64,000 bases of DNA, taken from contig JAUSJO010000002.1 of assembly GCA_030647205.1 (NCBI GenBank), positions 305,771-369,770 on the forward strand, given 5' to 3'. The notes below the pieces were generated by a model. The model ran no database searches. It worked only from the letters and a program-made list of their open reading frames with translations, and was not told the origin of the DNA. Source of the DNA: a bacterium. Its GTDB lineage: Bacteria; Patescibacteriota; CPR2; UBA1875; JAJYID01. The translations under genes were made by a program, and so were the position numbers. Numbering within the stretch: the stretch's first letter is position 1; each line of letters opens with the position of its first letter. Below, one piece after another: positions 11,645 through 39,157 of this stretch.

Positions 11645-11670
11645 ATTTTAAAGAACAATTTATTCTCTTC

Positions 11671-12444: not shown

Positions 12445-12597
12445 TTTTCATCTCCTTCTTTGTCTATTTTGACTTAAGAATAACATAATTTTGGATGTTT
12501 TAAAAGAGAACAGGGTTGAAAAACCAAGTATAAAATGGTAAAATAACTAACCGTTAATTTTCAACTCTCGTTGATGCTCTTTGAAAAAGGAGACCAA

Positions 12598-12771
12598 ATG
12601 ACTGAAGCAAAAGTAGTTTGCAGATTTTGCAAAGGGGAGGGTCAAAAGGAAGTCACCGATAGATACAAAAACCCCTGGTTCAATGTTTGCAAGAAATGTG
12701 TTGATGCCAAAACTAAAATAGCAGGAGAAGGATTTATCGCAAGAGTATTCGGGCTTTTCATCAATCATTGA
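12598..12771 (+). CDS. small CxxC…CxxC zinc-ribbon protein (57 aa)
   Basis: AAAAGGAG RBS is present, with motifs CRFCKGEG…CKKC. It ends 12 nt before the next gene. Confidence 0.45.
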   Translation: MTEAKVVCRFCKGEGQKEVTDRYKNPWFNVCKKCVDAKTKIAGEGFIARVFGLFINH

Positions 12772-12783
12772 AAGCGAGGAGTA

Positions 12784-13476
12784 ATGAAGCATATCATCGT
12801 GTCACCGTTTTGGAAGCATATCAAAGAGCCAGATTCACTCTACGAGTGCCAAGCAGACTTCTATGATGATATAACAGTGCCGATTCAGGGAAATATCCCG
12901 ACAGAAATGGGATATAAGACAATCAACAGAATTGGTGAAGTTTTGTATGATGGGGCTCTTTATGCATCTGCTCAACGTGCGAAAAAGCACTACGATGGCT
13001 GGCTTAGAAAGTCACGTATCGTAGAAGTTCCTGTTCTTAAGGAAGGTAAGTTTTCGGTTGTAAAGAAAGAAGATGGACTGATAATTACCGACCAAGAAGA
13101 TCACAGTGACAGATGTCTTTTGTTCGCAAACTGCCTGACGGCTTTTGTTAATTTCGGTCAGGGTTTCTTGGGGAGTGACTATTATCCAACAATAATAAGG
13201 AGAGAAAGCACCGGCGAGATACTCCGGGAGGATAGTATACTGGCTAAGGGTTCTCTTTGCTCAGCAGAGATTATTACCTTACTTGAGCCGGGGCAAACCC
13301 TTGCCTTGTTCACGAACTATCAAGGCGAGGATATCATCTTCGAGGATGAGAGGTTCATCACCATCTATACTTGGGATGGGAGAGAAATCAAGACAGAACG
13401 CCATGACTATTACTCAGAAGAGTGGCGCAGAAGACAGAGGTCGAAGGAAATACTCGAAAGTCCAGTGATAAGCTAA
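12784..13476 (+). CDS. hypothetical protein (230 aa)
   Basis: GAGGAG RBS is present, with a good terminator downstream. No family recognised. Confidence 0.5.
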   Translation: MKHIIVSPFWKHIKEPDSLYECQADFYDDITVPIQGNIPTEMGYKTINRIGEVLYDGALYASAQRAKKHYDGWLRKSRIVEVPVLKEGKFSVVKKEDGLIITDQEDHSDRCLLFANCLTAFVNFGQGFLGSDYYPTIIRRESTGEILREDSILAKGSLCSAEIITLLEPGQTLALFTNYQGEDIIFEDERFITIYTWDGREIKTERHDYYSEEWRRRQRSKEILESPVIS

Positions 13477-13494
13477 GGCATTTTCTGGACTATA

Positions 13495-13533
13495 GGGGCC
13501 TCGCGCTAAAAAGCGCGAGGCCTTTTTCTTTTT
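13495..13533 (+). terminator. rho-independent terminator (GGCCTCGCGC…GCGCGAGGCC plus T-run)
   Basis: A perfect 10-bp GC stem with loop TAAAAA is followed by TTTTTCTTTTT. Confidence 0.8.
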
Positions 13534-13642
13534 CCATCCTTATTGCCCGCTTGTGTCTATATGCTAATTGGTTTATACTTAAGCAGTAAGTAAAGAAGGG
13601 GGGTCCCCTTCTTCTTTTATACCTACTCATCGCAACTTGAAA

Positions 13643-14236
13643 ATGAGGTGGATTGAAGTGAAATTTTTATTGCTTGCACTACCTATCTTATTCATCGTTA
13701 TTAACTTCTATTGTTGGTTTACCTTAGGTAAACAAAAGGAAAGTCGTCAAACTAGCAGTACGGAAGTACTAAATGCCATGGAGTGTACTGTTTGGGCTGA
13801 TACTACCCATATGACTATAGCTATCAGAGAGCTGGATGCTGATTTTCTCGAAAGAGTATTTCCGTTAGTTAGGGAAAAACTTTTTGGAGGCGGGGAGTTA
13901 CGAACTTTGGACTTTATCATTGGTCCTTGTAGCTCTGCAGAAAAAGAGAGGCAAGATCTCTCGAAAATTGATGAATTGTGTAAACTATTTCCTCAAAAGG
14001 TTTCCGTTTATATCAAGAGGCCCGGTTATGTTTTTAGTAAGGCGGATAAAATCGGCGAACAATTCATCATGACCGATACGAGACTACTTGTTAAGAGCCA
14101 GCTAGTTACTAGGAGCATCCTTGTCGAGAGTCCTAATAAATGGACGAGAAGGAGGTATGAATCTCAAATCAATGAAGTCAAGGCATCTGATAAGGTCATA
14201 AAAAAATATCAGGCCCTTATGCCAAGAGTTGCATAA
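13643..14236 (+). CDS. hypothetical membrane-anchored protein
   Basis: An N-terminal TM helix (FLLLALPILFIVINFYCWFTL) is present. Start is ATG at 13643 or TTG at 13637. Confidence 0.45.
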   Translation: MRWIEVKFLLLALPILFIVINFYCWFTLGKQKESRQTSSTEVLNAMECTVWADTTHMTIAIRELDADFLERVFPLVREKLFGGGELRTLDFIIGPCSSAEKERQDLSKIDELCKLFPQKVSVYIKRPGYVFSKADKIGEQFIMTDTRLLVKSQLVTRSILVESPNKWTRRRYESQINEVKASDKVIKKYQALMPRVA

Positions 14237-14253
14237 GCGTATCAGGTACACAT

Positions 14254-14289
14254 GACGGGCAGTCTATGACTGCCCGTCCTTTCTTTTGT
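14254..14289 (+). terminator. rho-independent terminator (GACGGGCAGTC…GACTGCCCGTC plus T-run)
   Basis: An 11-bp perfect stem is followed by CTTTCTTTTG. Confidence 0.75.
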
Positions 14290-21419: not shown

Positions 21420-21853
21420 AAAAGTTTCATATGTTGACGAGCTGATGATTCCTTGGAGAAACTGAGTAATTTTTTTATTCATTACTATCTCCAGAAAACT
21501 CTTGCCGTTGAGGCAGAATTTCCCTATTATAGTAGTAATGTTTTAGCTTTAAACCTAAAGAATAATTTTTCGGGGGGCGATTGAAGTATAAAGAACGTAA
21601 GGTAAAGAGCACGAAAAGTAAGATTATAGCATACATAGCAAGGTGTTCGGCTTTTGTATGTAAAAATACTGAGCAGTCTTGTAGTTTAGCTAAGCACTCA
21701 TGGCTATGCCGTGAAAAGAAGGTAGTAGTCTTCCCTATTAGGGAGTTACTTAAGGTATTTTATTTCTTAAAAAATATATTTGTTCTCCTGCGTCTTGTTT
21801 ACTATGAACTGCTTTATTTCGCACACTTAAGGGTTAGATTCTTACATGATCAG

Positions 21854-24800
21854 ATGTATCAAGGTAATAAGACCTATAAAAAAGTAAATGATTTTAAGTA
21901 TACAAGGCCTATTCGCAAGGCAACAATCCTGGGGTTTGTTATATCGTTTTTCATTTTTCAGGTTATGGGAAGTCTCTGGCCGGAGATTTTTAACCCCGCC
22001 CACCCCAAGGTAGCAGAAGGCGGAAGCAACACTGTTACTTGGACGACAGATGCTGACTTTAACGCAGGCACTACTAAAAGCGGTGTTAAGGTTCAGAGTG
22101 ACAGTGTGACGCTAAATGATCCTGATATTATCCCTGAAGTAAAAGCGTCTGGGAATGACCTCTATGCCGTTCGCTTTTTGGATACTAATAATGGATACGC
22201 AGTTGGAATGAGCGGCCTTCTTTTAAAAACTATAGATGGCGGTGTCAACTGGTCAACAAAAAACCCGGGAACTAGTAATAATTTAAATGAAATTTATATA
22301 GTAGATGCTAACATATCTTATGTGGTGGGAGATGGCGGTGTCATTAGGAAAACGACAGACAGCGGAACGACATGGGCCACTCAAACTTCCGGAACAACAA
22401 ATAACTTAAATGGCGTTTACTTTACAGACGCAAACACCGGTTATGTGGTTGGAGATTCTGGAACAATCAAAAAAACCACAGATGGGGGTACAAACTGGGT
22501 TGCCCAGACTTCAGGGACAACCTATGCCTTTGAGGATATCTTTTTTGTCGGTGGTAGTACAGGATATGCTGCCGGATCAAACGGGTCTATATATAAAACT
22601 TTAGACGGAGGCACAAACTGGGTTATCCAGGCTACAGCAGCCGGTACTTCTTATAATTCAATATACTTCACAGACGCAAATACGGGTTATGCACCAGGTA
22701 ATATTGTTCTTAAAAAAACCACAGACGGAGGCACAAACTGGACCACCAACTACTCACTTAGCGGGAACACATGGTATGGGGTACACTTTGCTGACGCAAA
22801 TACTGGTTACGTGAGTGGTTCTAGTGGCAAGGTAAGAAAAACTATAAATTCGGGTACAAGCTGGACAGATCAGACTACGGGGTTTGGAGCGGGTAATGTT
22901 TATGACATTTACTTTACAGATGCTAATAACGGTTATGCAGTCGGGGCTAGCGGCAAGATTATAAAAACCACGAATGGCGGTGCAAACTGGACTTTGAAAA
23001 CTTTGAGTGTGACAGGTAACAACCTAAATAGTACTTACTTCACAGACTCAAATACCGGCTATGCAGTAGGGAACTCGGGCACTATCTTAAAAACTACAAA
23101 TGGTAGCGCGAGTTGGTCGGCCCTAACGTCTGGGACGTCAAGCGTCTTAAATGGTGTTTACTTTACGGATAACAATACTGGATACGCGGTTGGTGCAAGT
23201 GGTCTTATAAGGAAAACCACAGATGGGGGAGCGAACTGGGTTGCCCAGACTTCAGGGACAACCTATGCCTTATATGGCATACATTTTACAGATGCAAGTA
23301 CCGGGTATACAACGGGGGATAATGGGACGATATTAAAAACCACAGATGGGGGAGCGAACTGGGTTGCCCAGACTTCAGGGACGACGGGCTATTTTAGGGA
23401 CGTTTACTTCACAGATGCTAACACCGGCTTTCTTGCAGGAAGATACGGTATATACAAGACCACAAATGGGGGCACAAACTGGTCTTCAGTCTCTGGCTCT
23501 GATATCTATTTAAACAGCATGTATTTTACAGATGCAAATACCGGATATGCAGTCGGTAACAGTGGGACAATCATAAAAACCACAAATGGTGGTGCAAACT
23601 GGGCTGCCCAGACCTCAGGGACGACAAATCAGTTAAATAGTACTCATTTTACAAGTGCTAGCACTGGTTACATAGTTGGTGTTAACGGTACTATTCTTGA
23701 GACAAATGATGGGGGCACAAACTGGTCGTTGACGTCTGTGGGTACGTCTTTAAGTAGCGTTTATTTTACAGATGCTAACACCGGTTATGCAGTTGGTAGT
23801 ACTGGGTTTATTTTGAAGTTTTATCCTCAATATGCTACTTCGGGGGATATCTCTGGACTTAAGGTAGATGCAGGAGAAGGGGCAAAGGCGAACTGGTCTA
23901 GTATCACCAATAGCTCAACACTACTATCTAATACGTCAGTAAGTTTTCAGACAAGAGGCTCAGACGATAACTCTACTTGGTCCGGGTGGCAATCTCTAAG
24001 CGGTGAGACGATCCAAACTGCGGAGTATAGATATTTAGAAGTCAAAGCAACTTTGTCAACTTCTGACGGGCTACACACCCCATCGCTTAATGATCTTACG
24101 GTTACTTATGACAATCTCGAAGCCCCAGTAAATAGTAATATCACTTTAACAAAAACTGATGGTACGGCACTTAAAACAAGTGCGGGGGATGACCTGGCTG
24201 GCGGTGTAGCCGGAGGCTGGACAAATGCAACCACTGTTAGGTTAACGGCAACCGGCTTAACATGTGGGCAAGGAACTCCTGAAAATCCGACCTGTGGTTC
24301 AAGCTCGACAAACAGAAGACCTGAGGTTGAAATCAAAGAAATGGGAACTGTTTTTGATGGGGCTGTAACATATGAGGCAGTTAGTGGTAATAGCTATGTG
24401 GATGTGGCCTTGCCGGGGATTCCAGTCACAGGACAAGAATATCATATACGTGCAAGGAGTATTGACGATGAGGGCAAAGCGTCTGGATGGACTCAATATG
24501 CTAGCGATACTGCGGCTATTACGTATGATAATACTCCCGCAGGAGTATTTAATATCTCTACGCCCGCAGATAATAACTGGGGGACGGCAAGACCTACCTT
24601 TACTTGGGCTAGCACCTCTGATGCTAACTCTGGTATCAATAAATACCAGCTATACATAGATGGCGCACTAGATACCGACAATATTTCGGCGGTAGCCACT
24701 TCAGTTCAGGCAACAAACTCACTTATTGATGGAAGTCATACTTGGTATGTAAAGGCTGTCGATAATGCCGGTAATGCAAGGCAATCAACCAGTACATTTA

Positions 24801-27800
24801 CAGTCAATATAGACACTAGTGCACCGACATCATTCAACTTATCGACCCCGGCGAACAATTCATGGACAAACAACACTGGACCCACCCTGACATGGACAGC
24901 TTCTTCTGACCCGCATTCGGTCTTAGCAAAATACCAACTATATATCAACGGTAGCTTAAATAGAGACAACATTTCTTCAGTTGCTACCTCAACTACACCA
25001 ACAGGGTCTCAAACAGGAACATACTCATGGTATATAAAAGCAATAAATAATGCCGGCGGTGAGACAAATTCGGCGACCTATACTATCAACTATGACAACG
25101 CAGCCACATTCCCGTCACCTTTTGTAGCCAGCAGCAATGATGCGGAAAAGGTAGTCGTCTCATGGTCAGATCAAAATACAGGCGCTCCGACTGATACGTT
25201 CACAGTTCACAGGGTTAAGAAGTCAGAGTATGATAGTAACTCTTGGACAAAGGACAGTGATTGGAGTACAGGAACGGATTATGGCGTCTTTACAATTGCA
25301 GGAGGGGTTGGCGTCCTAAATGACAGTTCTCTTGGAGCGGTTCAAGGTCAGCCAATCATCTCTCAGTCGGTAAATTATGTCTACAAAATAAAATCAACGG
25401 ATACAGCTGGTAACGCATCCGGTTGGTCCAGCGTTGTTATCGGAAGAACAACCGATACAGCCGATCCTCAGGATCCATCTACCGTGACAGCAGTTGCTTG
25501 TGACGGAACGGCTCCGAACTGTTCAAACATTCTCAATAAGGGCTATGAAATCAAGCTGGCTTGGGCGGCCTCCAATGATTTTGGTTCAGGAGTGACCGGT
25601 TATAAAGTTTATAGAAATACGGCAAACTCTACAGATCCAAGTACATTTGCACTGGTCGGATATCTCGATGTACCAACACCGGGGGCTCCTGTTAGTACTG
25701 TCTACTATGATAATGACGCAAACAATGATAAACACGATTTCACTGACACTATAAATGAACAACAGGTAAGTATAAAAGCTGCCGCAACAGGGAGATTAAA
25801 TGATTACGTTAACTACTATTATAGGATAGTGGCGGTGGACGCTGTAGGAAACGAGACCAACATTATTACAACTGAAGGGCTAGGGTTACCAAACTACACT
25901 AACTATGCCACCGCAAGGACCCCTGACGTAACTTCTCCTTCGACCCCTCAGAATGTAGTTGTTACGCCTATGGGCCTTGACTCATCTGGTGGCGCTCAGC
26001 GAGTTGATGTTACCTGGAGTACTTCAACTGATATTACCAGTAGAAACGCAGGAGCAAGCGGTTCCGGGATTGCCGGATATAAAGTGATGCAATGTCAGGG
26101 TGACGGCACATTCTGTACTGATGATGGTAACTATAGTCAAATTGGTACAACATCCTCGACTAACTACACGAAAGAAGGCCTTGGAGAGTTCACTTGGTAT
26201 TACTATAAAATTATTGCTGTAGACAAGGCATCGTCAGCAACTATAACAGATACTTCTAATAACAGTTCAGCAAGAAGCTCATCGGCCTCAGTAAAAACAG
26301 CTTCAAATACAGTGCCAACGGTACCACTTTCCGTGAATGTAACGACAAAAACCGGTGATCCAAATACAGATAGCGATGTTGGTCATCAAAATACTGTTAC
26401 ATTTAACGGGTCATATGCCAAAAACTGTGCCGGTGGTGAACGCTGTGTTACGGGATACGAGATTTATCGCTCTACTGATAACTTTGCTTCAAGTTCGTTA
26501 AAAATTGCAGACGTTTCTATAGGTGCAGTTGGGGATGAAAGGAGTGTCACTTATACCTATATAGATAATAACTCGACGAACGATGCAACGGCGCCATCGA
26601 TTTCCAGAAGTTCAGGCGGAACTCCAGCTTTGAGTAAAGCACAAACCGCTCATTTGGTTGATGCAGCGACATATTATTATAAAGTGAAATCAAAAGACAA
26701 CACTCCAACAGTTCCCGACGGAGGACCATTTACTTCAGGCATGTCTTCGGTGGCTGTCGGTACTCTTCATGCTGGTTGGGATACAACCCCAGATGCAACA
26801 GATCCAGATGTCCCCCAAAGTGTAGCTGTAAAAAATATTCATCCAAATGACTCAATGGTTAGAAATATTATCACATGGACAATGATTCCGGATTCTACCA
26901 GAAACGGAACAAGTGACTTCTCAAAGTACCAGATCTATCGTTATGAGGTTCTGTTGGGCAGTGGTACGGCGACACTTATTGCAGAGAAAACTGATCGGGG
27001 AGATAACTATCATGTTGACGGGATTACAAACGGCCAAAAGGATAAAGATTATGCATATTATGTTGTAGCGGTAGACAATGCAGGGACAGACTTCAAATAT
27101 GCAAACGGGCAAATCATAAATCCTACATCCAACACGAGCAGCCATATAGCAACAGTTTCGATAAATCCTGGGGCAGTGAATCCTAGCGTATCAGGCACTA
27201 CAGTTGCGAGCACGGGCGTATCATCTGCTACTATAAACTGGTCTACGAACCAAGAGACAGATTCATTGGTAGAGTATAAGGTAAAAGATTCAAATGATGT
27301 GATTGCGGCAGGGAAAGACAGAACCCAACCGACAACAAGCCATTCTGTCTCCCTAGGAAACTTGAGCAAAGGTGTTGCTTACCAATATAGGATTGTCAGC
27401 CGTAACTCACTTGGTAATATTGATGAGTCTGCCGCAAATACATGGAAAGAGTTCTCAACCCAGGATTTTTATATATCAGATAATACTGTTTTGACCACTA
27501 CATCTACGGCGACTATAAGTTGGAACACAAACATCGACTCTGACTCATATGTGGAGTATAAACCGGAAGGATCATCAGAAAAGTATGAGGTTGCCGGTGA
27601 TGCTGTTCCGACGAAAAACCACGAGGTAACACTTAAGGGTTTGGTGCCGAACAGTCATTATACATATAATCTTCGTTCCGTCACTTCTGATAAATATATT
27701 GTTACAAAAAATCTCGATACCTTTAAAACCCGCGACAACGATCTCGATAAATTCAGAATTACACCGGGGGAAACCAATGTTTCGGAACAAAATATTACGG

Positions 27801-28726
27801 CGACTACAACTCAGATTACATGGACCACAACGGTTGCGACTACTTCATGGGTTGAGTATGGAACTGAGGTTGGAGTTTACTCGATGAGCGCCGGTGATAA
27901 TGATTTAAATACCCTGCATGCTGTTAAACTCACAAACTTGAGGCCAGGGACAAAGTACTTCTATAGAGTAAGGGGCAAAGATGAAAATGGTGTTGAACTC
28001 TTCTCGCCGGAATCATCATTTACTGCTATACTTATGCCCGAGATTTCAAACCTCAAAGTTAGAGACTTTAGCCCGTATACAGCAACGATTACATTTGATA
28101 CAAACGTTGAAACAGTTGTATCACTAAACTACGGCAAAGACACTAGCTATGGGTCAAGCGTGACTGTCGCAAAAGCGGAGAAAAATCACGTCATTACTCT
28201 TAAAGAACTTGACGATAACGCAACATATCATTTCCAGGCGTCTGCTACGGATCAGTTCAAAAACAATATTAAGTCTTCCGATATGATATTCTCAACCCCG
28301 CTTGATACCCAAGGACCGGAGGTGTCGGAGCTCAAAGTTGATGTTTTGCCTGTTTCTGACGCATCAGAGACAGCATCGGTTATCATTTCCTGGACAACAG
28401 ATAAGCCTGCAACAACGCAGGTGGAGTACGATGACAAGGGTGGCGGGGAAAAATATGAAAACCACACTATAGAAAACGCTACCTTAAATACGTCTCATAC
28501 GGTTTTGATCAAAGACCTAAATACATCGGCTAACTATAGATTTAGGATTATATCTAAGGATAAGAGAAATAATCTGACCAAAACGAAAGCTTCAAACTTT
28601 ATCACCCCGACAAAAGAAAAGTCACTGCTTCAGATAATTATAAAATCATTCGAAGATACATTTTCTTGGACAAAGAATGTTCCGCAGTTTTTTGGTAAAA
28701 TAGGAAATCGGCTAATGGGTCAATAG
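21854..28726 (+). CDS. giant cell-surface protein (2,291 aa): signal anchor, ~20 Ycf48/BNR-like Asp-box beta-propeller repeats, then Fn3-like and purple-acid-phosphatase-N-like domain arrays
   Basis: Repeats of type YAVGxSGxIxKTTDGGxNW(x)QTSGTT run from ~22150 to 23750. The remainder is Ser/Thr-rich. About six modules of type TxATISWxTNxxSDSxVEYxxxxS…YxYRxxS run from 26700 to 28500. The start is taken at ATG 21854 (MYQGNK…, followed by an anchor helix). The in-frame ORF extends upstream to 21581. Confidence 0.8.
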   Translation: MYQGNKTYKKVNDFKYTRPIRKATILGFVISFFIFQVMGSLWPEIFNPAHPKVAEGGSNTVTWTTDADFNAGTTKSGVKVQSDSVTLNDPDIIPEVKASGNDLYAVRFLDTNNGYAVGMSGLLLKTIDGGVNWSTKNPGTSNNLNEIYIVDANISYVVGDGGVIRKTTDSGTTWATQTSGTTNNLNGVYFTDANTGYVVGDSGTIKKTTDGGTNWVAQTSGTTYAFEDIFFVGGSTGYAAGSNGSIYKTLDGGTNWVIQATAAGTSYNSIYFTDANTGYAPGNIVLKKTTDGGTNWTTNYSLSGNTWYGVHFADANTGYVSGSSGKVRKTINSGTSWTDQTTGFGAGNVYDIYFTDANNGYAVGASGKIIKTTNGGANWTLKTLSVTGNNLNSTYFTDSNTGYAVGNSGTILKTTNGSASWSALTSGTSSVLNGVYFTDNNTGYAVGASGLIRKTTDGGANWVAQTSGTTYALYGIHFTDASTGYTTGDNGTILKTTDGGANWVAQTSGTTGYFRDVYFTDANTGFLAGRYGIYKTTNGGTNWSSVSGSDIYLNSMYFTDANTGYAVGNSGTIIKTTNGGANWAAQTSGTTNQLNSTHFTSASTGYIVGVNGTILETNDGGTNWSLTSVGTSLSSVYFTDANTGYAVGSTGFILKFYPQYATSGDISGLKVDAGEGAKANWSSITNSSTLLSNTSVSFQTRGSDDNSTWSGWQSLSGETIQTAEYRYLEVKATLSTSDGLHTPSLNDLTVTYDNLEAPVNSNITLTKTDGTALKTSAGDDLAGGVAGGWTNATTVRLTATGLTCGQGTPENPTCGSSSTNRRPEVEIKEMGTVFDGAVTYEAVSGNSYVDVALPGIPVTGQEYHIRARSIDDEGKASGWTQYASDTAAITYDNTPAGVFNISTPADNNWGTARPTFTWASTSDANSGINKYQLYIDGALDTDNISAVATSVQATNSLIDGSHTWYVKAVDNAGNARQSTSTFTVNIDTSAPTSFNLSTPANNSWTNNTGPTLTWTASSDPHSVLAKYQLYINGSLNRDNISSVATSTTPTGSQTGTYSWYIKAINNAGGETNSATYTINYDNAATFPSPFVASSNDAEKVVVSWSDQNTGAPTDTFTVHRVKKSEYDSNSWTKDSDWSTGTDYGVFTIAGGVGVLNDSSLGAVQGQPIISQSVNYVYKIKSTDTAGNASGWSSVVIGRTTDTADPQDPSTVTAVACDGTAPNCSNILNKGYEIKLAWAASNDFGSGVTGYKVYRNTANSTDPSTFALVGYLDVPTPGAPVSTVYYDNDANNDKHDFTDTINEQQVSIKAAATGRLNDYVNYYYRIVAVDAVGNETNIITTEGLGLPNYTNYATARTPDVTSPSTPQNVVVTPMGLDSSGGAQRVDVTWSTSTDITSRNAGASGSGIAGYKVMQCQGDGTFCTDDGNYSQIGTTSSTNYTKEGLGEFTWYYYKIIAVDKASSATITDTSNNSSARSSSASVKTASNTVPTVPLSVNVTTKTGDPNTDSDVGHQNTVTFNGSYAKNCAGGERCVTGYEIYRSTDNFASSSLKIADVSIGAVGDERSVTYTYIDNNSTNDATAPSISRSSGGTPALSKAQTAHLVDAATYYYKVKSKDNTPTVPDGGPFTSGMSSVAVGTLHAGWDTTPDATDPDVPQSVAVKNIHPNDSMVRNIITWTMIPDSTRNGTSDFSKYQIYRYEVLLGSGTATLIAEKTDRGDNYHVDGITNGQKDKDYAYYVVAVDNAGTDFKYANGQIINPTSNTSSHIATVSINPGAVNPSVSGTTVASTGVSSATINWSTNQETDSLVEYKVKDSNDVIAAGKDRTQPTTSHSVSLGNLSKGVAYQYRIVSRNSLGNIDESAANTWKEFSTQDFYISDNTVLTTTSTATISWNTNIDSDSYVEYKPEGSSEKYEVAGDAVPTKNHEVTLKGLVPNSHYTYNLRSVTSDKYIVTKNLDTFKTRDNDLDKFRITPGETNVSEQNITATTTQITWTTTVATTSWVEYGTEVGVYSMSAGDNDLNTLHAVKLTNLRPGTKYFYRVRGKDENGVELFSPESSFTAILMPEISNLKVRDFSPYTATITFDTNVETVVSLNYGKDTSYGSSVTVAKAEKNHVITLKELDDNATYHFQASATDQFKNNIKSSDMIFSTPLDTQGPEVSELKVDVLPVSDASETASVIISWTTDKPATTQVEYDDKGGGEKYENHTIENATLNTSHTVLIKDLNTSANYRFRIISKDKRNNLTKTKASNFITPTKEKSLLQIIIKSFEDTFSWTKNVPQFFGKIGNRLMGQ

Positions 28727-28771: not shown

Positions 28772-29161
28772 ATGAGTCAAGCAGATAACATACAAGCGCC
28801 TATACCGGAAAGTAAGGAGCAAGTAACAAACAGCCAGGGAGAGATCAAAGAAGCGGCTTTACCAGAAACAGGGTCTCAAAAAATGGGTGAGCCTGTCCCA
28901 GGGACTACGAAAAGCGATAATACAATACCCGCTACTATTTCTAAAGTTTTGGAACCGGATGCAAAAACTCCCGCGGTTCAGCCAGCTTCCGGTACTGCGC
29001 CGGCTTCCGCACAAAGGCCTTCCAGTGAGCCATATATTAAAGCAGCAGAAGATATCATACAAAAAGATAAGGGCGATCCGCATAAAGAGGAAGACGATCA
29101 CGAAGTTATACAGATGCAGTATCTAAGCAACCGTTTTGGTAAAAATATAAAAAAGAAATAA
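28772..29161 (+). CDS. low-complexity Pro/Ala/Ser/Glu-rich hypothetical protein (likely disordered)
   Basis: AAAGGAG RBS is present. There are no hydrophobic segments. Confidence 0.45.
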   Translation: MSQADNIQAPIPESKEQVTNSQGEIKEAALPETGSQKMGEPVPGTTKSDNTIPATISKVLEPDAKTPAVQPASGTAPASAQRPSSEPYIKAAEDIIQKDKGDPHKEEDDHEVIQMQYLSNRFGKNIKKK

Positions 29162-29162
29162 T

Positions 29163-31673
29163 ATGGTATTTATTGTTTTAGGAGGGTGTTTTCTTTTATG
29201 TCTTTCGGGACTGGTGGTTTTGTATTTCTACAAAAAAACTAAGGCGTACAAAAAGCAGGTTGAAAGGTCTCTCAAAATTGTTCCTCTTAAAATAACAGTT
29301 CCCAGAGATCTTGGATCAAAGAATATGCAGGGCCAGACGCGTGACGACAGAGAAGCAGCGAAAGAGATTGTATCCTTTATGGAAACTTTTTATGCCAATC
29401 TCTCCACTATTTATAAAAGGGGTTTTAAGAATATTCACAGAAATTTTTTTTATGGTCAAAGGCACCTATCACTTGAAATTATTGCCAAGGACAGGGAAAT
29501 ATTCTTTTATATGGGGGTTCCGGTAATCTTAGTTGATATGGTTGAGAAAATGCTTTCTTCTCAGTATCCTGAAGCATTGATTGAAGAGTCAGAAGAACTG
29601 AATATTTTTTCCGAGGAATGGAAAGAGGTGGGAGTTTGCGGAGGAGAGCTGAAACTGCTAAAGAAATTTATTTATCCTATTAAAACATATAAAAACATTG
29701 ATTCTGAACCTTTGGAGTCTATAACAAATGCTTTAAGTAGAATGAGCCAAGGAGAGGGAGCAGCTATTCAGATGCTTATTCGCCCGGTCAGTGCAAGGAA
29801 GATGGGAGGTGGCCGCTCTGCCGTAAGAAAGTCACAAAACCAAAAAAACAGAGGTAGTATCGCAGGACAGATTATAGATGCGACACTGACAAACGGTCAA
29901 GGTTCTCAATCCCAAGAGCCGGTAAAACTTACGGCAATGGAAGAAGAGGTAAATAAGGCTATTGAAGAAAAGGCGGGGAAACCAGCATTTGAGACGATTA
30001 TCCGATTTGTTGTTTCAACTCAAACACCACATCGCAGCGAGATGATTTTAGCTGAACTCCAAAGTGCCTTTGCCCAGTTCAACGATCAAAATCTAAATGG
30101 TTTCAAATTTGTGAGAGAAAAAAACGTTGATAAACTTGTAACCGACTATATCTTCCGATTTTTTGAACATAAACTCTTTTCTTTAAATAGCGTTTTAGGA
30201 AATTTTCTCGGCCATAAAAGTATTTTAAATACCGAGGAGCTATCCAGCATATTCCACTTACCTAACTATTTGACGCCGTCCCCCGGTATCAATTGGCTCC
30301 CCGCAAAAATGGTTGAGCTTCCATTAAACATTCCACAAGAAGGAACCGTTATCGGTAAGGCTACATATAGAGGAGAGGAAAAAGTGATCCGAGTTTCAGA
30401 TGTTGATAAAAGAAGGCATGTTTATATCCTTGGACAAACCGGTACAGGTAAGTCAAACCTGATGAAGAACATGATAGTTGATGACATTATGCGGGGGAAA
30501 GGCGTTGCTTATATTGACCCGCATGGTCAGGATTTGGAAGATGTTATCAGTAAGATCCCCAAAGAGAGAGCGGAAGATGTAATAATTTTTGACGCCGGTG
30601 ATATTGAAAGGCCGATGGGGCTCAACATATTTGAGGCGGAAACAACCGAACAGAAAGATCTGGTGACAAACGAAGCGCTGGACATCTTGTATAGTTTGTA
30701 TGACCCTAACCATTCCGGCCAAATATTTGGGCCGCGTTTTGACCACTGGTTTAGGAACGCTGCCTTGACTTTGATGGCTGACCCGGCAGGAGGTACATTT
30801 ATAGAAATTCCAACCTTGTTTACTAACGAGAGGTTTTTAGCGGAAAAGTTAAAACATGTTGAAGACCCGATAGTTAGGAGCTTCTGGGTTGATGAGTTCG
30901 CAAATACATCGCAACAGGTTAAGTCTGAGATGTTAAGCTATTTCATCCCCAAGTTTGGTGCTTTCATGACCAATACCACCATGCGAAATATTATGGGTCA
31001 ACCCATTTCCTCATTAAAGTTGAGAGAGATTATGGATAACAAAAAGATACTGCTTGTAAACCTTTCTAAGGGTAGAATCGGCGAAAAAAACATGAAGCTT
31101 TTAGGAATGATTTTTGTTATAAAGCTTCAGGTGGCGGCTATGTCTAGGGCAGATGTTCCTGAGGATCAGAGACAGGACTTCACTCTTTATGTTGATGAGT
31201 TTCAAAACTTTCTTACTGAGTCATTTGCCCAGATACTTTCCGAGGCGCGAAAGTATAGATTTATCCTTGTTGTTGCGAACCAGTTTGTCGGGCAGTTGAC
31301 TGACGAGATCAGAACGGCCGTTTTTGGTAACGTTGGTACGGTGATGTCGTTCAGGGTTGGCCCCGAAGACGGCGAGTACATGGTAAAACAGTTTGAACCT
31401 GTTTTTAATGTTAACGATATGCTTAATATGGAAAATGGATACGCTGTAATAAGACTGATGATAAACGGATATCCATCCAGACCGTTTATAGTGAATCCTA
31501 CGTGGCCGCCTATAGGTGTGTCTAATCCGAAAGTTGGTGAAGCGATAAAGCAGCTTTCAAGACTTAAATATGCAAAACCAAAAGAAATTGTAGATCAAGA
31601 GGTTTTGAGCCGTATGCCGATACAAAGTGCTGGTTCTCAGGAAGCAAGTTCTGGTGATTTGCCAAGATCATAA
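29163..31673 (+). CDS. membrane-anchored VirD4/TraG/TraD-like (type IV coupling protein / FtsK-HerA superfamily) P-loop ATPase
   Basis: An N-terminal TM helix and a ~330-aa unique domain precede Walker A (ILGQTGTGKSNL), Walker B (LYVDEFQNF), and ANQFVGQL and MSFRVG motifs. Confidence 0.55.
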   Translation: MVFIVLGGCFLLCLSGLVVLYFYKKTKAYKKQVERSLKIVPLKITVPRDLGSKNMQGQTRDDREAAKEIVSFMETFYANLSTIYKRGFKNIHRNFFYGQRHLSLEIIAKDREIFFYMGVPVILVDMVEKMLSSQYPEALIEESEELNIFSEEWKEVGVCGGELKLLKKFIYPIKTYKNIDSEPLESITNALSRMSQGEGAAIQMLIRPVSARKMGGGRSAVRKSQNQKNRGSIAGQIIDATLTNGQGSQSQEPVKLTAMEEEVNKAIEEKAGKPAFETIIRFVVSTQTPHRSEMILAELQSAFAQFNDQNLNGFKFVREKNVDKLVTDYIFRFFEHKLFSLNSVLGNFLGHKSILNTEELSSIFHLPNYLTPSPGINWLPAKMVELPLNIPQEGTVIGKATYRGEEKVIRVSDVDKRRHVYILGQTGTGKSNLMKNMIVDDIMRGKGVAYIDPHGQDLEDVISKIPKERAEDVIIFDAGDIERPMGLNIFEAETTEQKDLVTNEALDILYSLYDPNHSGQIFGPRFDHWFRNAALTLMADPAGGTFIEIPTLFTNERFLAEKLKHVEDPIVRSFWVDEFANTSQQVKSEMLSYFIPKFGAFMTNTTMRNIMGQPISSLKLREIMDNKKILLVNLSKGRIGEKNMKLLGMIFVIKLQVAAMSRADVPEDQRQDFTLYVDEFQNFLTESFAQILSEARKYRFILVVANQFVGQLTDEIRTAVFGNVGTVMSFRVGPEDGEYMVKQFEPVFNVNDMLNMENGYAVIRLMINGYPSRPFIVNPTWPPIGVSNPKVGEAIKQLSRLKYAKPKEIVDQEVLSRMPIQSAGSQEASSGDLPRS

Positions 31674-37648: not shown

Positions 37649-39157
37649 ATGAGTAAACTAATAAATAAATTTAAAAAGAAAGTGGTAGTACTTGCGAGTG
37701 TGATGCTTGTCTTGCAGCCGCTTTTGGGACTGGCAGTTTTGCCGGCAAATACATTGGCTGCAGATCCTTGTATAGGTCTAAACAGCGACGTTGTCATCAA
37801 TGAAGTTTATGTTGATGCTACCGCTGCCAACGATAATGATAGTGAGTTTATTGAACTATACAATAACTCTGCTAGCTCTTGCGTTGATATTAGCGGATGG
37901 AAGATTCAGACTGATGGTGGTGGTGTTGCCGATGCTACATTGCCAGCAAGTACGAAAATATCTGCACAGGGTTATTATTTAATAGCTGATAATGGTTGGG
38001 CGGCTTCTAGAGATAATATGTCATGGCCGCTTGCCGATAATGATGAGTATGAATTAGACCTCAATAATTCAGACGCTGGGATTGCTCTGGTTGATGACTC
38101 TGCGGAGCCAGTTGTAATAGATGCAGTTGGATATGGAACACCGGCTGAAATATGGGGCGGTTTCGAGGGAACGACTCCAATGGCAAATGCTGACGTAGTA
38201 AATCCTAATAGTATTGCGAGGATTCCTGCCGGTACTGATACTGACGAAAATTCAGATGACTTCTTTCCTGGTACTCCAACACCAAAGAGTTCAGATATCG
38301 TTGCGCCGGTTGTTACTGGAGTGGAAGACGAGAAATATTATAGTGATAGTGTAACTCCTGTATTTACCGAAGGAACCGGTACTCTATCTCAAGATGGTGG
38401 TCCGGCAGATCCATTTACAAGCGGAACATCGGTCACTTCAGAAGGATCCTACGTTTTAACTGTAACTGATGCAGCAGGGAATGCGACAACTGTAAATTTC
38501 GTAATTGACACAACTAAGCCGGCATTTACCTCAACAGTTACTCCGAAGATTGCCGGGCCGGGTGTAAAAACAGTTGATATTACAATTACTACGAATGAAC
38601 CGTTAAAATCTCAGGTTGGACCAGAAGGAGCGTATGAACTTATGTTAGTCATCAACGAACCGGGTGGTACTCTGACTACTGTATACCTCAATCATGACAT
38701 AAGCGACCCGACAGGGAAGACATTTACATATGCTTATACAATCCAAACCGCTGGCAAAAAACATGTTTCAATGAACGTTGGTGGAACTAACTTGGCTGGT
38801 CTTGGTAATTTCGGATCTGCAGTAGATGGTTTCGATATTGACAATATTGTTCTCTCGCCGGTAGTTACTACTCCTACAACTTCTGTAGTTACTGCGGTTG
38901 CGACTGTACCGGTTGATGAGCAGTTTGGTGGTGGTTCTTCTTCTGATCAGGGTGAAGTGAAAGCAGATACAACCATAAAGACAGACGATGGAAGCAAGAC
39001 CGATGATAGCAATCAGCAAAAAGATGATGTAAAGGGTAAAAAGAATATTCCACTTTGGGGTATCATATTCTTACTTATCCTAGCTGGGATTGGCGGTTAC
39101 CTCTTCTACTCACAAAATCCTGATAAGCCTTCCGGTAGATCAAACGGAAAGAAGTAA
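37649..39157 (+). CDS. secreted/surface protein with lamin-tail domain (LTD) and C-terminal membrane anchor
   Basis: A signal peptide is followed by the LTD motif VVINEVYVD…EFIELYNNSASSCVDISGWKIQ. Ser/Thr-rich regions follow, then a C-terminal TM helix (IPLWGIIFLLILAGIGGYLFY). Confidence 0.65.
   Translation: MSKLINKFKKKVVVLASVMLVLQPLLGLAVLPANTLAADPCIGLNSDVVINEVYVDATAANDNDSEFIELYNNSASSCVDISGWKIQTDGGGVADATLPASTKISAQGYYLIADNGWAASRDNMSWPLADNDEYELDLNNSDAGIALVDDSAEPVVIDAVGYGTPAEIWGGFEGTTPMANADVVNPNSIARIPAGTDTDENSDDFFPGTPTPKSSDIVAPVVTGVEDEKYYSDSVTPVFTEGTGTLSQDGGPADPFTSGTSVTSEGSYVLTVTDAAGNATTVNFVIDTTKPAFTSTVTPKIAGPGVKTVDITITTNEPLKSQVGPEGAYELMLVINEPGGTLTTVYLNHDISDPTGKTFTYAYTIQTAGKKHVSMNVGGTNLAGLGNFGSAVDGFDIDNIVLSPVVTTPTTSVVTAVATVPVDEQFGGGSSSDQGEVKADTTIKTDDGSKTDDSNQQKDDVKGKKNIPLWGIIFLLILAGIGGYLFYSQNPDKPSGRSNGKK

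What the first reader, a model, noticed from the sequence alone, without database searches (positions are those of the whole stretch)
21854..28726. 2,291-aa surface protein: ~20 Ycf48/BNR-like Asp-box propeller repeats plus Fn3/PAP-N-like arrays, with near-identical intragenic DNA repeats
The N-terminal third is a long array of ~40-aa repeats ending in an Asp-box-like T(T/D)(D/N)GGxNW, in the Ycf48/sortilin/BNR beta-propeller style. The middle is Ser/Thr-rich with Fn3-like modules. The C-terminus has about six PAP-N-like domains (ISWxTN…VEY…YxYR). At the DNA level, ACCACAGATGGGGGAGCGAACTGGGTTGCCCAGACTTCAGGGAC recurs at about 22474, 23215 and 23338. Copies 2 and 3 are identical over more than 45 nt. 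This indicates recent duplication or gene conversion and a recombination-prone, possibly phase-variable locus. Giant surface proteins of this kind are candidate host-attachment factors in episymbiotic CPR bacteria.
Basis: partly seen in the sequence, partly recalled or inferred. Interest (0 to 1): 0.55.

Follow-up and report, generated by a model that had tools for sequence, protein, structure and literature searches.

The report
Giant CPR surface fibre, swappable propeller head
This is a real 2,381-residue exported protein of an ultrasmall (CPR/Patescibacteria) bacterium: a long stalk of small beta-sandwich domains carrying a double seven-bladed propeller, one member of a large, undescribed family in which relatives carry quite different domains at the same position, which makes it a candidate host-recognition fibre; it shows no sign of being a phase-variable switch.

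Summary
The gene is real, intact and under purifying selection. Several details of the finding need correcting.

- **Start codon.** It is the TTG at 21581, not the ATG at 21854. The protein is 2,381 aa.
- **Propeller.** There are 13 Asp-boxes and 14 blades, modelled as two tandem 7-bladed propellers, not about 20 repeats.
- **C-terminal modules.** There are five PAP-N-type Fn3 modules, not six.
- **DNA repeat.** It is confirmed as a 47-nt exact patch shared by blades 9 and 10. The blades are otherwise only 33-73% identical. This is at most a micro-conversion, not a recent duplication.
- **Phase variation.** There are no simple-sequence tracts and no invertible elements. The closest relative (about 90% nt identity) also has 14 blades.

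The more interesting result concerns the family. The protein belongs to a family whose full-length members were found only in Patescibacteria. The family has at least 302 clusters at 50% identity. It is defined by an extended N-terminal export module with a conserved motif, a conserved beta-sandwich, five PAP-N modules and an amphipathic tail that is always at the extreme C-terminus. None of the three new pieces matches Pfam, and NCBIfam (scanned with the whole protein) names none of them. Between two conserved junctions, relatives carry different heads: Ycf48-like, RCC1, Kelch, Lcl_C or Gly-rich.

The best reading is a Sec-exported surface fibre with an exchangeable ligand-binding head. Function and orientation are inferred, not shown.

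The parts
21502..21530 (+). Promoter-like site, TTGCCG-17-TATTAT, about 50 nt upstream of the start codon
   Evidence: Consensus scan. The stretch aligns with L003 and L001. It is a consensus match only.
21572..21577 (+). G-rich Shine-Dalgarno-like tract (GGGGGG), 3 nt before the TTG start
   Evidence: Sequence. Related loci have GGAGG-like tracts at the same place.
21581..28726 (+). Complete coding sequence, 2,381 aa plus stop. The start codon is corrected from 21854.
   Evidence: ORF list. The upstream 91 codons are conserved in P0002, P0003, P0122 and P0126, with synonymous changes.
21581..21919 (+). Basic N-region (aa 1-113, part of the first 115 aa that carry net charge +19), predicted cytoplasmic. 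Codons 1 to about 60 are mosaic: unalignable with the 90%-identical relative but similar to L001.
21773..21883 (+). Conserved N-module motif (aa 65-101: ...ELLYFAHLRVRFLHD...TYKK), with invariant H-x3-R-x2-H-D-x8-Y and K in >=90% of the 12 sequences. No Pfam match.
   Evidence: Alignment A9 of 12 family members. No Pfam hit. The local HMM finds it in 33 of 76 long tail-bearing proteins.
21920..21979 (+). The only strongly hydrophobic segment of the protein (aa 114-133, ATILGFVISFFIFQVMGSLW). It is the h-region of an extended signal peptide or a signal anchor.
   Evidence: Kyte-Doolittle scan.
22013..22021 (+). A-E-G, a candidate signal-peptidase-I site (AxA/AxG). Relatives have a conserved small-x-small site at the same place.
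   Evidence: Sequence comparison. Cleavage is inferred, not shown.
22022..22132 (+). Conserved N-terminal segment of the putative mature protein (GSNTVTWTTDADF...). This is the left junction of the head.
   Evidence: W and F are invariant in A9. In the headless members P0173 and P0175 this segment runs straight into the beta-sandwich.
22133..22996 (+). Propeller 1: blades 1-7 of the Ycf48-like Asp-box repeats
   Evidence: AF2 model mc65bb133cc41, pLDDT 83. Foldseek.
22997..23833 (+). Propeller 2: blades 8-14. Blade 14 lacks the Asp-box.
   Evidence: phmmer against Ycf48 structures gives E 2e-19.
23213..23259 (+). 47-nt patch in blade 9, identical to 23336-23382
   Evidence: In relative L003 the two patches differ at 6 positions.
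23336..23382 (+). 47-nt patch in blade 10, identical to 23213-23259
22472..22518 (+). Third, imperfect copy of the patch, in blade 3 (3 mismatches)
23834..24124 (+). Conserved beta-sandwich ('module 4': ...ISGLKVDAG..W..I....F.TR....YLEV.ATL.T.DG..TP.LND.TV.YD). This is the right junction of the head. No Pfam match. The fold is weakly CBM32/discoidin-like.
   Evidence: No Pfam hit. Present in 48 of 76 long family members. AF2 of the homologous module in headless member P0173 gives pLDDT 78-89. Foldseek best E is 1.4e-3.
24125..24538 (+). Unassigned domain with one Cys pair. Conserved in the family.
   Evidence: Only a faint Ig_Rha78A_N hit, E 0.15. Family alignment A3.
24539..25108 (+). Two Big_13 bacterial Ig-like domains
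   Evidence: Pfam E 3.9e-10, 2 stretches.
25109..27193 (+). Stalk. About five Fn3-like modules with long inserts (recurring W..S.D..SG..GY.(V/I)YR ... YYY+(V/I).A.D motifs) and three close Cys pairs.
   Evidence: Weak fn3 hits, E 2e-3 to 3e-3. Sequence pattern. Family-level FN3 hits. The module count is my reading of the sequence.
27194..28582 (+). Five PAP-N-type Fn3 modules. This is the most conserved part of the gene (dN/dS 0.04).
   Evidence: Pfam Pur_ac_phosph_N E 2e-20. Five modules by sequence. Most relatives have exactly five. dN/dS.
28583..28723 (+). Conserved amphipathic C-terminal tail (TPTKEKSLLQIIIKSFEDTFSWTKNVPQFFGKIGNRLMGQ). NCBIfam (whole-protein scan at E <= 0.01) names nothing here, and the tail alone was not scanned.
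   Evidence: Profile A6 finds 302 clusters at E <= 1e-3. In all 150 listed, the match ends within about 12 residues of the protein's end. Hydrophobic moment 0.4-0.54. NCBIfam names nothing here.

Best explanation
The gene encodes a Sec-exported, roughly 2,230-residue cell-surface fibre of a Patescibacteria (CPR) bacterium. Its parts, in order, and the role I assign to each:

1. An unusually long N-terminal export module carries a conserved cytoplasmic motif (H-x3-R-x2-HD...YK). It contains the protein's single hydrophobic segment and a conserved AxG/AxA site. This module takes the protein across the membrane and is probably cleaved off.
2. The mature protein starts with a short conserved segment.
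3. Next comes the 'head': 14 Ycf48-like Asp-box blades folded as two tandem seven-bladed propellers.
4. A conserved beta-sandwich follows the head.
5. The stalk has about a dozen Ig/Fn3-type domains.
6. Five conserved PAP-N-type Fn3 modules follow the stalk.
7. The protein ends in a conserved amphipathic tail.

I propose that the conserved C-terminal block and tail hold the fibre on the cell, through an unknown partner, the wall or the membrane surface. The variable head would then be the distal ligand-binding module, most likely binding glycan or surface structures of a host cell or particle.

In relatives, the head between the same two conserved junctions is a different domain, so binding specificity would evolve by cassette exchange.

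**Shown:** the gene boundaries, the domain anatomy, the propeller fold (as a model), purifying selection, the restriction of full-length relatives to Patescibacteria-type MAGs, and head replacement.

**Inferred:** signal cleavage, which end is anchored, and binding as the function.
For: **Export**
- There is one hydrophobic segment (aa 114-133). It lies behind a net +19 N-region and is followed by AEG|G.
- Small-x-small sites sit at the same place in P0005, P0017, P0055 and P0060.
- There are 8 Cys in 4 close pairs.

**Head fold**
- Pfam PSII_BNR E 7e-54. Ycf48 is the only PDB sequence hit.
- The AF2 model has pLDDT 83 with 14 four-stranded blades.
- Foldseek full-length matches are two-propeller GH74 enzymes (TMq about 0.6). 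Half-length matches are Ycf48 (TMt 0.72-0.75).
- The same roughly 560-aa 14-blade unit recurs in 86 of 118 hits. Many sit just behind a signal peptide in T9SS cargo proteins.

**Family**
- The C-tail profile finds 302 clusters, always C-terminal.
- All 76 long ones have at least 4 PAP-N modules; 48 have the beta-sandwich; 33 have the N-module; only 1 has Ycf48 blades.
- Heads in 17 members: RCC1 in 5, Kelch in 3, Lcl_C in 2, Gly_rich_2 in 1, PSII_BNR in 1.
- Head replacement is seen directly in P0002 (Gly-rich), L007 and L010 (RCC1) and L009 (Lcl_C-like).
- Headless members join the two junction pieces directly.

**Selection and lineage**
- dN/dS is 0.04-0.14, lowest in the PAP-N block.
- Full-length relatives occur only in Saccharibacteria, CPR2 and Patescibacteria MAGs, or in MAGs titled just 'bacterium'.

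**Precedent**
- A seven-bladed RCC1 propeller (PilX2) is the proposed pilus-tip adhesin of Saccharibacteria (PMC11623550).
Against: - No ligand, localisation or expression data exist.
- No known anchor is present. I saw no LPXTG motif or second hydrophobic segment in the sequence. Pfam and NCBIfam report no SLH or other anchoring domain.
- The N-module, including its hydrophobic segment and flanking P/N residues, is far more conserved than ordinary signal peptides. That would fit a retained membrane anchor, which would put the head next to the membrane rather than at the tip.
- AF2 did not order the conserved N-segment against the beta-sandwich (pLDDT 38-53). The structural logic of the junctions is therefore unresolved.
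- Substitutions between the two closest relatives show no hot spot on the blades. Nothing marks a rapidly evolving binding face.
- The beta-sandwich's resemblance to carbohydrate-binding modules is weak (best E 1.4e-3, TM 0.3-0.5).
Confidence: 0.55

Rival explanations
1. It is an N-terminally anchored envelope or S-layer-like structural protein. The conserved N-module is a permanent type II membrane anchor. The propellers sit close to the membrane. The conserved PAP-N block and amphipathic tail form the distal end, which contacts something invariant: the bacterium's own outer layer, neighbouring fibres, or a host membrane.
For: - The N-module has invariant H, R, HD, Y, P and N residues and a conserved hydrophobic segment, unlike generic signal peptides.
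- It is the only hydrophobic segment in the protein.
- The tail is amphipathic and basic, as membrane-surface-binding helices are.
- The C-terminal block is the best-conserved part.
Against: - A small-x-small peptidase site is conserved directly before the conserved mature N-terminus in distant members.
- In most fibrillar surface proteins the variable module is distal and the conserved module is the self-attached one (general knowledge).
- Conserved motifs inside cleaved signal peptides of giant surface proteins have precedents, namely YSIRK and ESPR (general knowledge).
Confidence: 0.2
2. This is the first reader's reading: a contingency locus whose near-identical intragenic repeats drive frequent gain or loss of blades, that is, phase or size variation within a population.
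For: - There is a 47-nt exact direct repeat 123 nt apart. It is in frame, so recombination would delete exactly one blade.
- In a sister species two assemblies differ by exactly four blades (3 versus 7). The proteins are otherwise identical over the part displayed, and the upstream flank is 99.9% identical. The blades there are 73-96% identical.
Against: - In this gene the blades are only 33-73% identical, and 47 nt is at the lower limit for homologous recombination.
- There are no SSRs, no invertible-element repeats and no recombinase nearby.
- The nearest relative keeps all 14 blades, under dN/dS of about 0.1.
- Losing one blade would break a seven-bladed propeller.
- The 3-versus-7 case comes from short-read assemblies, one at about 2x coverage, so a collapsed repeat cannot be excluded.
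Confidence: 0.08
3. It is a surface-tethered polysaccharide-degrading enzyme. The double propeller would be a GH74-like endoglucanase or another glycosidase, displayed on a stalk.
For: - The best full-length structural matches of the model are GH74 xyloglucanases, which also consist of two tandem seven-bladed Asp-box propellers (E 8e-21, TMq about 0.6).
- The adjacent beta-sandwich weakly resembles CBMs.
Against: - Sequence identity to GH74 is 13-16%. No GH74 chain is found by sequence, although these chains are in the PDB set searched.
- The unit is about 560 aa of near-consensus 41-aa blades. GH74 domains have about 700-780 aa.
- The similarity reflects shared architecture. No catalytic pair could be identified.
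Confidence: 0.07
4. It is a genuine Ycf48/HCF136 photosystem II assembly factor, fused to other domains.
For: - The Pfam PSII_BNR match is strong.
- NCBI names the protein 'YCF48-related'.
Against: - The NCBIfam Ycf48 equivalog scores 193 bits against a cutoff of 326, and the score is spread over 8 stretches.
- The propeller is duplicated and sits in a giant exported protein.
- The lineage is Patescibacteria, which is non-photosynthetic (general knowledge).
Confidence: 0.01

Closest known systems
'YCF48-related' 14-blade modules of T9SS cargo proteins in Bacteroidota and Ignavibacteria (for example P0007, P0019, P0076)
   Same: - The same roughly 560-aa unit of 14 Asp-box blades, 45-56% identical.
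- It usually sits directly behind a signal peptide.
- It is often followed by Big_13, Fn3 or PAP-N domains.
   Different: - These proteins end in a T9SS sorting domain (PF18962).
- They were not picked up by the N-module and beta-sandwich models, which were only searched against the tail-bearing set. None of them appears among the 150 listed C-tail hits.
- Their function is also unknown.
Ycf48/HCF136 (for example PDB 8am5_S, 2xbg, 5ojr)
   Same: - A seven-bladed propeller with the same blade consensus.
- It is the only family of solved structures found by sequence (E 2e-19).
- Each half of the model superposes on it (TMt 0.72-0.75).
   Different: - Ycf48 is a single propeller of about 330 aa and a lipoprotein of phototrophs that binds D1.
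- Here the propeller is duplicated and embedded in a giant protein of a non-photosynthetic lineage.
- The score is below the equivalog cutoff.
GH74 xyloglucanases (for example 6p2o, 2cn3)
   Same: Two tandem seven-bladed Asp-box propellers.
   Different: - No sequence relationship was detected, and no catalytic residues were identified.
- The blades here are much more compact.
Fibrillar adhesins of other bacteria: Gram-positive SasG/Aap/Embp-type proteins, and RTX adhesins such as LapA, SiiE and FrhA
   Same: - The same design logic: a giant exported protein with a long stalk of repeated Ig/Fn3-like domains and a distinct globular ligand-binding module.
- Conserved motifs in extended signal peptides (YSIRK, ESPR) offer a parallel for the N-module (general knowledge; PMC6272769 and PMC7587433 were listed).
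   Different: - I saw no LPXTG, RTX or T1SS features in the sequence, and Pfam and NCBIfam report none.
- The terminal modules here are new.
PilX2 of Nanosynbacter lyticus TM7x (and PilY1)
   Same: A seven-bladed beta-propeller is proposed as the host-binding adhesin of a Saccharibacterium (PMC11623550). RCC1 propellers are the commonest head found in the 17 members scanned (5 of 17).
   Different: PilX2 is a minor pilin at the tip of a type IV pilus. It is not a self-standing giant fibre.

Membership tests
BNR/Asp-box beta-propeller repeats | Repeated S/T-x-D/N-x-G-x-T/N-W motif, about one per blade | tested here: met
   13 motifs at 40-42 aa spacing. Blades aligned.
BNR/Asp-box beta-propeller repeats | Four-stranded blades closing into a propeller | tested here: met
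   AF2 model with pLDDT 83 and 14 blades of 3-4 strands. Propeller matches in Foldseek. This is a model, not an experiment.
Ycf48/HCF136 photosystem II assembly factor | Pfam PSII_BNR domain above the gathering score | tested here: met
   183.5 bits against a cutoff of 27.
Ycf48/HCF136 photosystem II assembly factor | NCBIfam equivalog PRK13684 above its cutoff | tested here: not met
   192.9 bits against a cutoff of 326, spread over 8 stretches.
Ycf48/HCF136 photosystem II assembly factor | Single propeller protein of about 330 aa in an oxygenic phototroph | tested here: not met
   Two propellers lie inside a 2,381-aa protein. The lineage is Patescibacteria.
GH74 glycoside hydrolases | Two tandem seven-bladed propellers | tested here: met
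   Foldseek E 8e-21, TMq 0.57-0.63.
GH74 glycoside hydrolases | Sequence membership | tested here: not met
   No GH74 chain found by phmmer at E <= 1e-3. Identity in structural alignments is 12-16%.
GH74 glycoside hydrolases | Catalytic Asp pair in the inter-propeller cleft | not testable with these tools
At about 14% identity the alignment is too unreliable to map residues.
Purple acid phosphatase / PhoD | Metallophosphatase catalytic domain after the N-terminal Fn3-like domain | tested here: not met
   Only Pur_ac_phosph_N and PhoD_N match. No catalytic domain is found.
Fibrillar adhesins (stalk plus adhesive domain plus anchor) | Export signal and a stalk of repeated Ig/Fn3-like domains | tested here: met
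   Hydrophobic segment plus AxG site. Big_13 x2, Fn3-like and PAP-N x5.
Fibrillar adhesins (stalk plus adhesive domain plus anchor) | A domain with demonstrated adhesive function | tested here: inconclusive
   No binding function is known for the Ycf48-like double propeller. The beta-sandwich is only weakly CBM-like.
Fibrillar adhesins (stalk plus adhesive domain plus anchor) | A recognised cell-surface anchor (LPXTG, SLH, LysM, choline-binding, C-terminal TM) | tested here: not met
   Pfam and NCBIfam report no such domain. I saw no LPXTG in the sequence. There is no second hydrophobic segment.
Phase-variable / contingency loci | Simple-sequence tract in the promoter or 5' coding region | tested here: not met
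   TRF finds only three trivial rows. The longest homopolymer near the start is G6.
Phase-variable / contingency loci | Invertible segment with inverted repeats and a site-specific recombinase | tested here: not met
   Only three weak chance-like inverted repeats. The neighbours are PheS/T, YkuD, an ATPase and GyrB.
Phase-variable / contingency loci | Repeat-number differences within a population | tested here: inconclusive
   14 versus 14 blades in the only close relative. 3 versus 7 blades in a sister species, from short-read assemblies. No reads are available.
Patescibacteria '(PAP-N)5 plus C-tail' giant proteins (delineated here; not in Pfam or NCBIfam) | Conserved tail ...TP.KEKS.LQ.I.KS.E.TF.W... 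at the extreme C-terminus, preceded by PAP-N modules | tested here: met
   83 bits, E 8e-19, for the window protein. 302 clusters, all C-terminal. 76 of 76 long members have at least 4 PAP-N modules.
Patescibacteria '(PAP-N)5 plus C-tail' giant proteins (delineated here; not in Pfam or NCBIfam) | Extended N-module (H-x3-R-x2-HD...YK, hydrophobic segment, AxA/AxG), then TW..DF, then a head, then the conserved beta-sandwich | tested here: met
   Alignments A3 and A9. Present in 33 (N-module) and 48 (beta-sandwich) of 76 long members.

The most novel reading that the evidence does not exclude
The family is a Patescibacteria-specific host-recognition system. Each fibre presents an exchangeable head cassette, either a propeller of Ycf48, RCC1 or Kelch type, or a lectin-like or Gly-rich domain. 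The cassette is recombined in and out at two fixed junctions, the conserved N-segment and the beta-sandwich. This would set host range much as phages swap receptor-binding domains. On this reading the conserved N-module and the C-terminal amphipathic tail are two new CPR-specific signals, one for export or targeting and one for surface attachment.
Probability: 0.25. Interest if true: 0.75.

Novelty: new variant of a known kind. Interest (0 to 1): 0.5.

Why it matters
How ultrasmall CPR/Patescibacteria find and hold their host cells is largely unknown. Type IV pili and a few small envelope proteins are the only factors with genetic support (PMC10633639, PMC11623550).

This gene belongs to a large family, at least 302 clusters at 50% identity, whose full-length members were found only in CPR-type MAGs. 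The scaffold is conserved, but the head is replaced by unrelated interaction domains between close relatives.

That pattern gives concrete, testable candidates for host-specificity determinants:
- Head type can be compared with host or habitat.
- The heads can be expressed alone for binding screens.
- The two new terminal motifs can be tested as export and anchoring signals.

There is also a practical annotation point. The deposited protein (MDO8507333.1) starts 91 codons too late and so lacks the conserved N-module.

Tried and rejected
- **Chimeric AF2 construct.** I tried to model a 'head-deleted' construct (N-segment plus beta-sandwich). I used the natural headless member P0173 instead. That model ordered the beta-sandwich but not the N-segment. 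The idea that the head is an insertion inside one beta-sandwich domain is therefore neither supported nor excluded.
- **N-module search.** A word-index search with the N-module alignment A9 returned nothing at E <= 1e-3. This is a null result, probably a sensitivity limit for a short, partly hydrophobic profile. I cannot say whether the N-module occurs outside this family.
- **Repeat and switch scans.** TRF, inverted-repeat and promoter/terminator scans found nothing that suggests a switch.
- **Diversifying selection.** dN/dS by region and a blade-register map of substitutions gave no signal on the head.
- **Conserved neighbours.** The downstream 129-aa ORF and the 836-aa DUF8128/HerA-like ATPase are syntenic only in the closest relative. 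A MacB/FtsX-type ABC transporter adjoins the gene in L001, L002/L004/L005 and L013. It is absent from this window and was not found within the flanks held for L007-L011. Neither is a consistent partner.
- **Literature.** Four searches and three papers gave no description of this family. The essential Fn3 protein SEML1_0890 of S. epibionticum has only 195 aa and is not a member.
- **Gene conversion.** The 47-nt patch has 6 mismatches in the relative. The pattern is mosaic and fits either conversion in this lineage or ancestral identity followed by drift in the other lineage. It is not decisive.
- **Multi-domain alignment.** An alignment for a 713-aa AF2 job misplaced the N-segments of relatives, so I did not submit it.

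Full report

Largely yes, with corrections. A single + strand ORF runs from 21581 to 28726. It also gives fn3 (6e-21), Pur_ac_phosph_N (2e-20, 4 stretches) and Big_13.

The quoted 44-mer is found at 22475 (3 mismatches), 23216 and 23339 (0 mismatches), with none expected in shuffles. The exact identity between the last two copies extends over 47 nt, 23213-23259 = 23336-23382.

A motif scan finds 13 Asp-boxes ([ST]x[DN][GS][GS]x[STN]W) spaced 40-42 aa apart, followed by a 14th blade that lacks the box. So there are 14 blades, not about 20. I count five PAP-N-type modules, not six. Ser+Thr make up 25% of the mature protein.

**2. The gene starts earlier than stated.**

Relatives P0002/P0124, P0003/P0126 and P0122 all carry an N-terminal extension. 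In the window this extension is encoded upstream of the ATG at 21854.

A DNA alignment of the four loci shows that each begins with TTG or GTG behind a GGAGG-like or G-rich tract. In the window this is GGGGGG-cga-TTG at 21581. Window and L001 differ by synonymous changes in the first codons. The 'Met' at 21854 is Leu elsewhere.

A promoter-like TTGCCG-17-TATTAT lies at 21502-21530. The protein is therefore 2,381 aa. The NCBI record (MDO8507333.1, 'YCF48-related protein [bacterium]') is 91 residues short.

**3. Anatomy (numbering from the TTG).**

- **aa 1-113:** basic region; the first 115 aa carry net charge +19. It contains a conserved motif with invariant H-x3-R-x2-H-D-x8-Y, and K in at least 90% of the 12 family members aligned.
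- **aa 114-133:** the only strongly hydrophobic segment in the whole protein.
- **aa 145-147:** A-E-G. Distant relatives have ALA, ASA, AEA, VQA or VQG at the same place, each directly before a conserved '..TW...(D/H)F' segment.
- **aa 185-751:** 14 blades.
- **aa 752-848:** a conserved beta-sandwich with no Pfam match.
- **Next:** an unassigned domain, two Big_13 domains (E 4e-10), and about five Fn3-like modules with inserts. These have only weak Pfam support, E about 2e-3.
- **Then:** five PAP-N-type modules.
- **Last 47 residues:** an amphipathic tail with hydrophobic moment 0.4-0.54.
- **Cysteines:** eight Cys form four close pairs, as expected for an extracellular protein.

**4. The head.**

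By sequence, the only solved relatives are Ycf48 proteins (E 2e-19). The NCBIfam Ycf48 equivalog scores 193 bits against a cutoff of 326.

An AF2 model of aa 144-759 has pLDDT 83 and pTM 0.57, and shows 14 four-stranded blades. The MSA was 12 contiguous homologous segments.

Foldseek against the PDB gives two kinds of match. Full-length matches are the GH74 xyloglucanases, which are two tandem seven-bladed Asp-box propellers (E 8e-21, TMq about 0.6, 12-16% identity). Half-length matches are Ycf48 (TMt 0.72-0.75). The head is thus a double seven-bladed propeller.

The resemblance to GH74 is architectural. No GH74 chain is found by sequence, and the unit is about 560 aa against about 700-780 aa in GH74.

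The same 14-blade unit occurs in 86 of 118 hits, at up to 56% identity. It is typically found just behind a signal peptide in proteins that end in a T9SS sorting domain.

**5. The DNA repeats and 'phase variation'.**

In register, the 13 blade units are 33-73% identical at nucleotide level. The longest exact in-register run outside the 9/10 pair is 23 nt. TRF does not detect the array. There are no simple-sequence tracts and no invertible-element-like inverted repeats. The neighbours are housekeeping genes.

The closest relative is L003, a Logan assembly with about 90-91% nucleotide identity and identical synteny. It has the same 13 Asp-boxes, and its orthologous blades are 80-95% identical to the window's. 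There the two 47-nt patches differ at 6 positions, in a mosaic pattern. This is compatible either with a short conversion tract in the window lineage or with ancestral identity. It is not decisive.

dN/dS between the two genes is 0.04-0.14 in every alignable region. The neighbours YkuD, the ATPase and PheT give 0.04, 0.02 and 0.15.

The gene is therefore a conserved, functional gene. It is not a hypervariable or switching one.

**6. What does vary.**

- **The 5' end.** The first roughly 60 codons cannot be aligned between window and L003. They resemble those of the more distant L001, so the 5' end is mosaic.
- **The head.** In P0002/P0124 the propeller is absent. This protein is 65% identical over the stalk, and its genome's GyrB is 85% identical to the window's. 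A roughly 500-aa Gly-rich region sits between the same two conserved flanks.
- **Blade number.** P0003 and P0126 come from a sister species. Their proteins are identical over the stalk portion displayed, the upstream flank is 99.9% identical, and synteny is the same. Yet they carry 3 and 7 blades, a difference of 164 aa = 4 x 41. The blades there are 73-96% identical. Because one blade of the short form differs at three residues from every blade of the long form, I think a real difference more likely than a pure assembly collapse. These are short-read assemblies, one at about 2x coverage, so I leave the question open.

**7. The family.**

A scan of one genome per species returned full-length relatives only from six MAGs. 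Two are Ca. Saccharibacteria (L007, L009), one is CPR2 (L011) and one is 'Patescibacteria group' (L010). Two are titled just 'bacterium' (L006, L008). A C-terminal match came from Ca. Shapirobacteria (L013).

Their heads are RCC1-like (L007, L010), Gly-rich (L008, L011) or Lcl_C-like (L009). All end in the same tail 4-19 residues before the stop codon. L009 has two such genes in tandem.

A 44-position profile of the tail was searched against 1.84 billion representatives. It finds 302 proteins at E <= 1e-3. In all 150 listed, the match ends within about 12 residues of the C-terminus, and most are 2,000-3,800 aa long.

I searched these with local HMMs. All 76 of the listed proteins with at least 1,500 aa have at least 4 PAP-N modules, mostly exactly 5. 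Of these 76, 48 have the beta-sandwich, 33 have the N-module, and only 1 has Ycf48-type blades.

Pfam on 17 of them shows RCC1 heads in 5, Kelch in 3, Lcl_C in 2, Gly_rich_2 in 1 and PSII_BNR in 1.

Two members (P0173, P0175) have no head. In these the conserved N-segment runs directly into the beta-sandwich. The heads therefore sit between two fixed junctions.

An AF2 model of the headless scaffold orders the beta-sandwich (pLDDT 78-89) but not the N-segment. Foldseek gives only weak matches to CBM, CBM32 and discoidin domains (best E 1.4e-3).

**8. Organism.**

The window is ordinary chromosome. It carries PheS/T, GyrA/B, CTP synthase, BipA and a 16S rRNA gene.

GyrB has its best named hits in candidate division WS5 (85%), Patescibacteria group (85%) and Howlettbacteria. 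The CPR assignment is supported.

**9. Mechanism.**

*Shown:* an intact, constrained gene; one N-terminal hydrophobic segment behind a basic region; a conserved small-x-small site; all-beta extracellular-type domains with Cys pairs; a double propeller (by model); a conserved C-terminal block; and head replacement among relatives.

*Inferred:* Sec export with cleavage at AEG|G; attachment to the cell through the conserved PAP-N block and amphipathic tail; and the head as the distal ligand-binding module.

The argument for this orientation has three parts. The self-interacting end should be the conserved one, and the target-interacting end the variable one. The peptidase-type site is conserved. 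Conserved motifs in long signal peptides of giant surface proteins have precedents in YSIRK and ESPR (general knowledge).

The main rival keeps the N-module as a permanent anchor, which its unusual conservation would fit. I give the surface-fibre-with-binding-head model 0.55. I give the N-anchored structural variant 0.2, the contingency-locus reading 0.08, a GH74-like enzyme 0.07 and a true Ycf48 0.01.

**10. Comparison and novelty.**

The protein is a member of the Asp-box/BNR propeller class and matches Pfam PSII_BNR. It fails the tests for being a Ycf48 and for being a GH74 enzyme. It also lacks the catalytic domain of purple acid phosphatases.

In design it works like a fibrillar adhesin but has none of their known anchors. 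A beta-propeller adhesin has a precedent in Saccharibacteria, PilX2 (PMC11623550).

I found no description of this family, of its N-module, of its beta-sandwich or of its tail. Pfam has no match for the N-module or the beta-sandwich. NCBIfam, scanned with the whole protein, names none of the three. The papers searched do not describe it. The tail alone was not scanned against either library.

The sequence itself is already public and named 'YCF48-related'. I rate the finding as a new variant of a known kind, with moderate interest. The value lies in the family-level head exchange and the new terminal modules, not in the intragenic DNA repeat that prompted the finding.

Noticed in passing
window 43123-47852: The 16S rRNA gene (43123-44577) is followed by tRNA-Ile (44807) and tRNA-Ala (45181). 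After these comes a P-type cation ATPase gene (45375-47852), not a 23S gene. Rfam finds no LSU rRNA anywhere in the window, so the rRNA operon appears to be split.
   Followed up: partly
window 28772-31673: Directly downstream of the giant gene lie a 129-aa ORF with no family match and an 836-aa protein. The larger one has DUF8128 plus a HerA/DUF87, TraD/VirB4-like P-loop. It is under very strong constraint (dN/dS 0.02). The pair is syntenic in L003 but is not next to the giant gene in L001, L002 or L004. No link to the fibre could be shown.
   Followed up: partly
L001 6200-9162; L002 4587-6643; L004 7696-9752; L013 4114-6401: In several relatives a MacB/FtsX-type ABC transporter pair lies immediately next to the giant gene, divergently upstream or directly downstream. 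No FtsX homolog was found in this 64-kb window or in the flanks held for L007-L011. It may be an export or release partner in some lineages.
   Followed up: partly
L001 8506-9162: An IS200-like Y1 transposase gene sits directly upstream of the ortholog whose propeller head is replaced by a Gly-rich domain.
   Followed up: no
L009 about 1-5750 and 6001-14280: A Ca. Saccharibacteria MAG carries two tail-bearing giant genes in tandem. Paralogous fibres therefore exist within one genome.
   Followed up: no
window 21581-21853 (NCBI MDO8507333.1): The deposited annotation starts at the internal ATG. It omits 91 residues, including the conserved N-module motif.
   Followed up: yes
window 37649-39157: A 502-aa protein with a Lamin Tail Domain (LTD, E 4e-16) is encoded a few genes downstream. 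It may be another exported protein.
   Followed up: no
proteins P0386 and P0390 (GyrB relatives): Some CPR GyrB homologs, including Ca. Howlettbacteria, are 1,100-1,190 aa long and carry an intein domain (PF14890). The window's GyrB has none.
   Followed up: no
window 22001-26000: G+C is 44-45% over the head and first half of the stalk, against about 40% for the rest of the window. The propeller unit is more similar to Bacteroidota-type modules (up to 56% identity) than to the propellers of other family members (about 35-38%). This could reflect amino-acid composition and consensus-like repeats, or acquisition of the head from outside the lineage.
   Followed up: no
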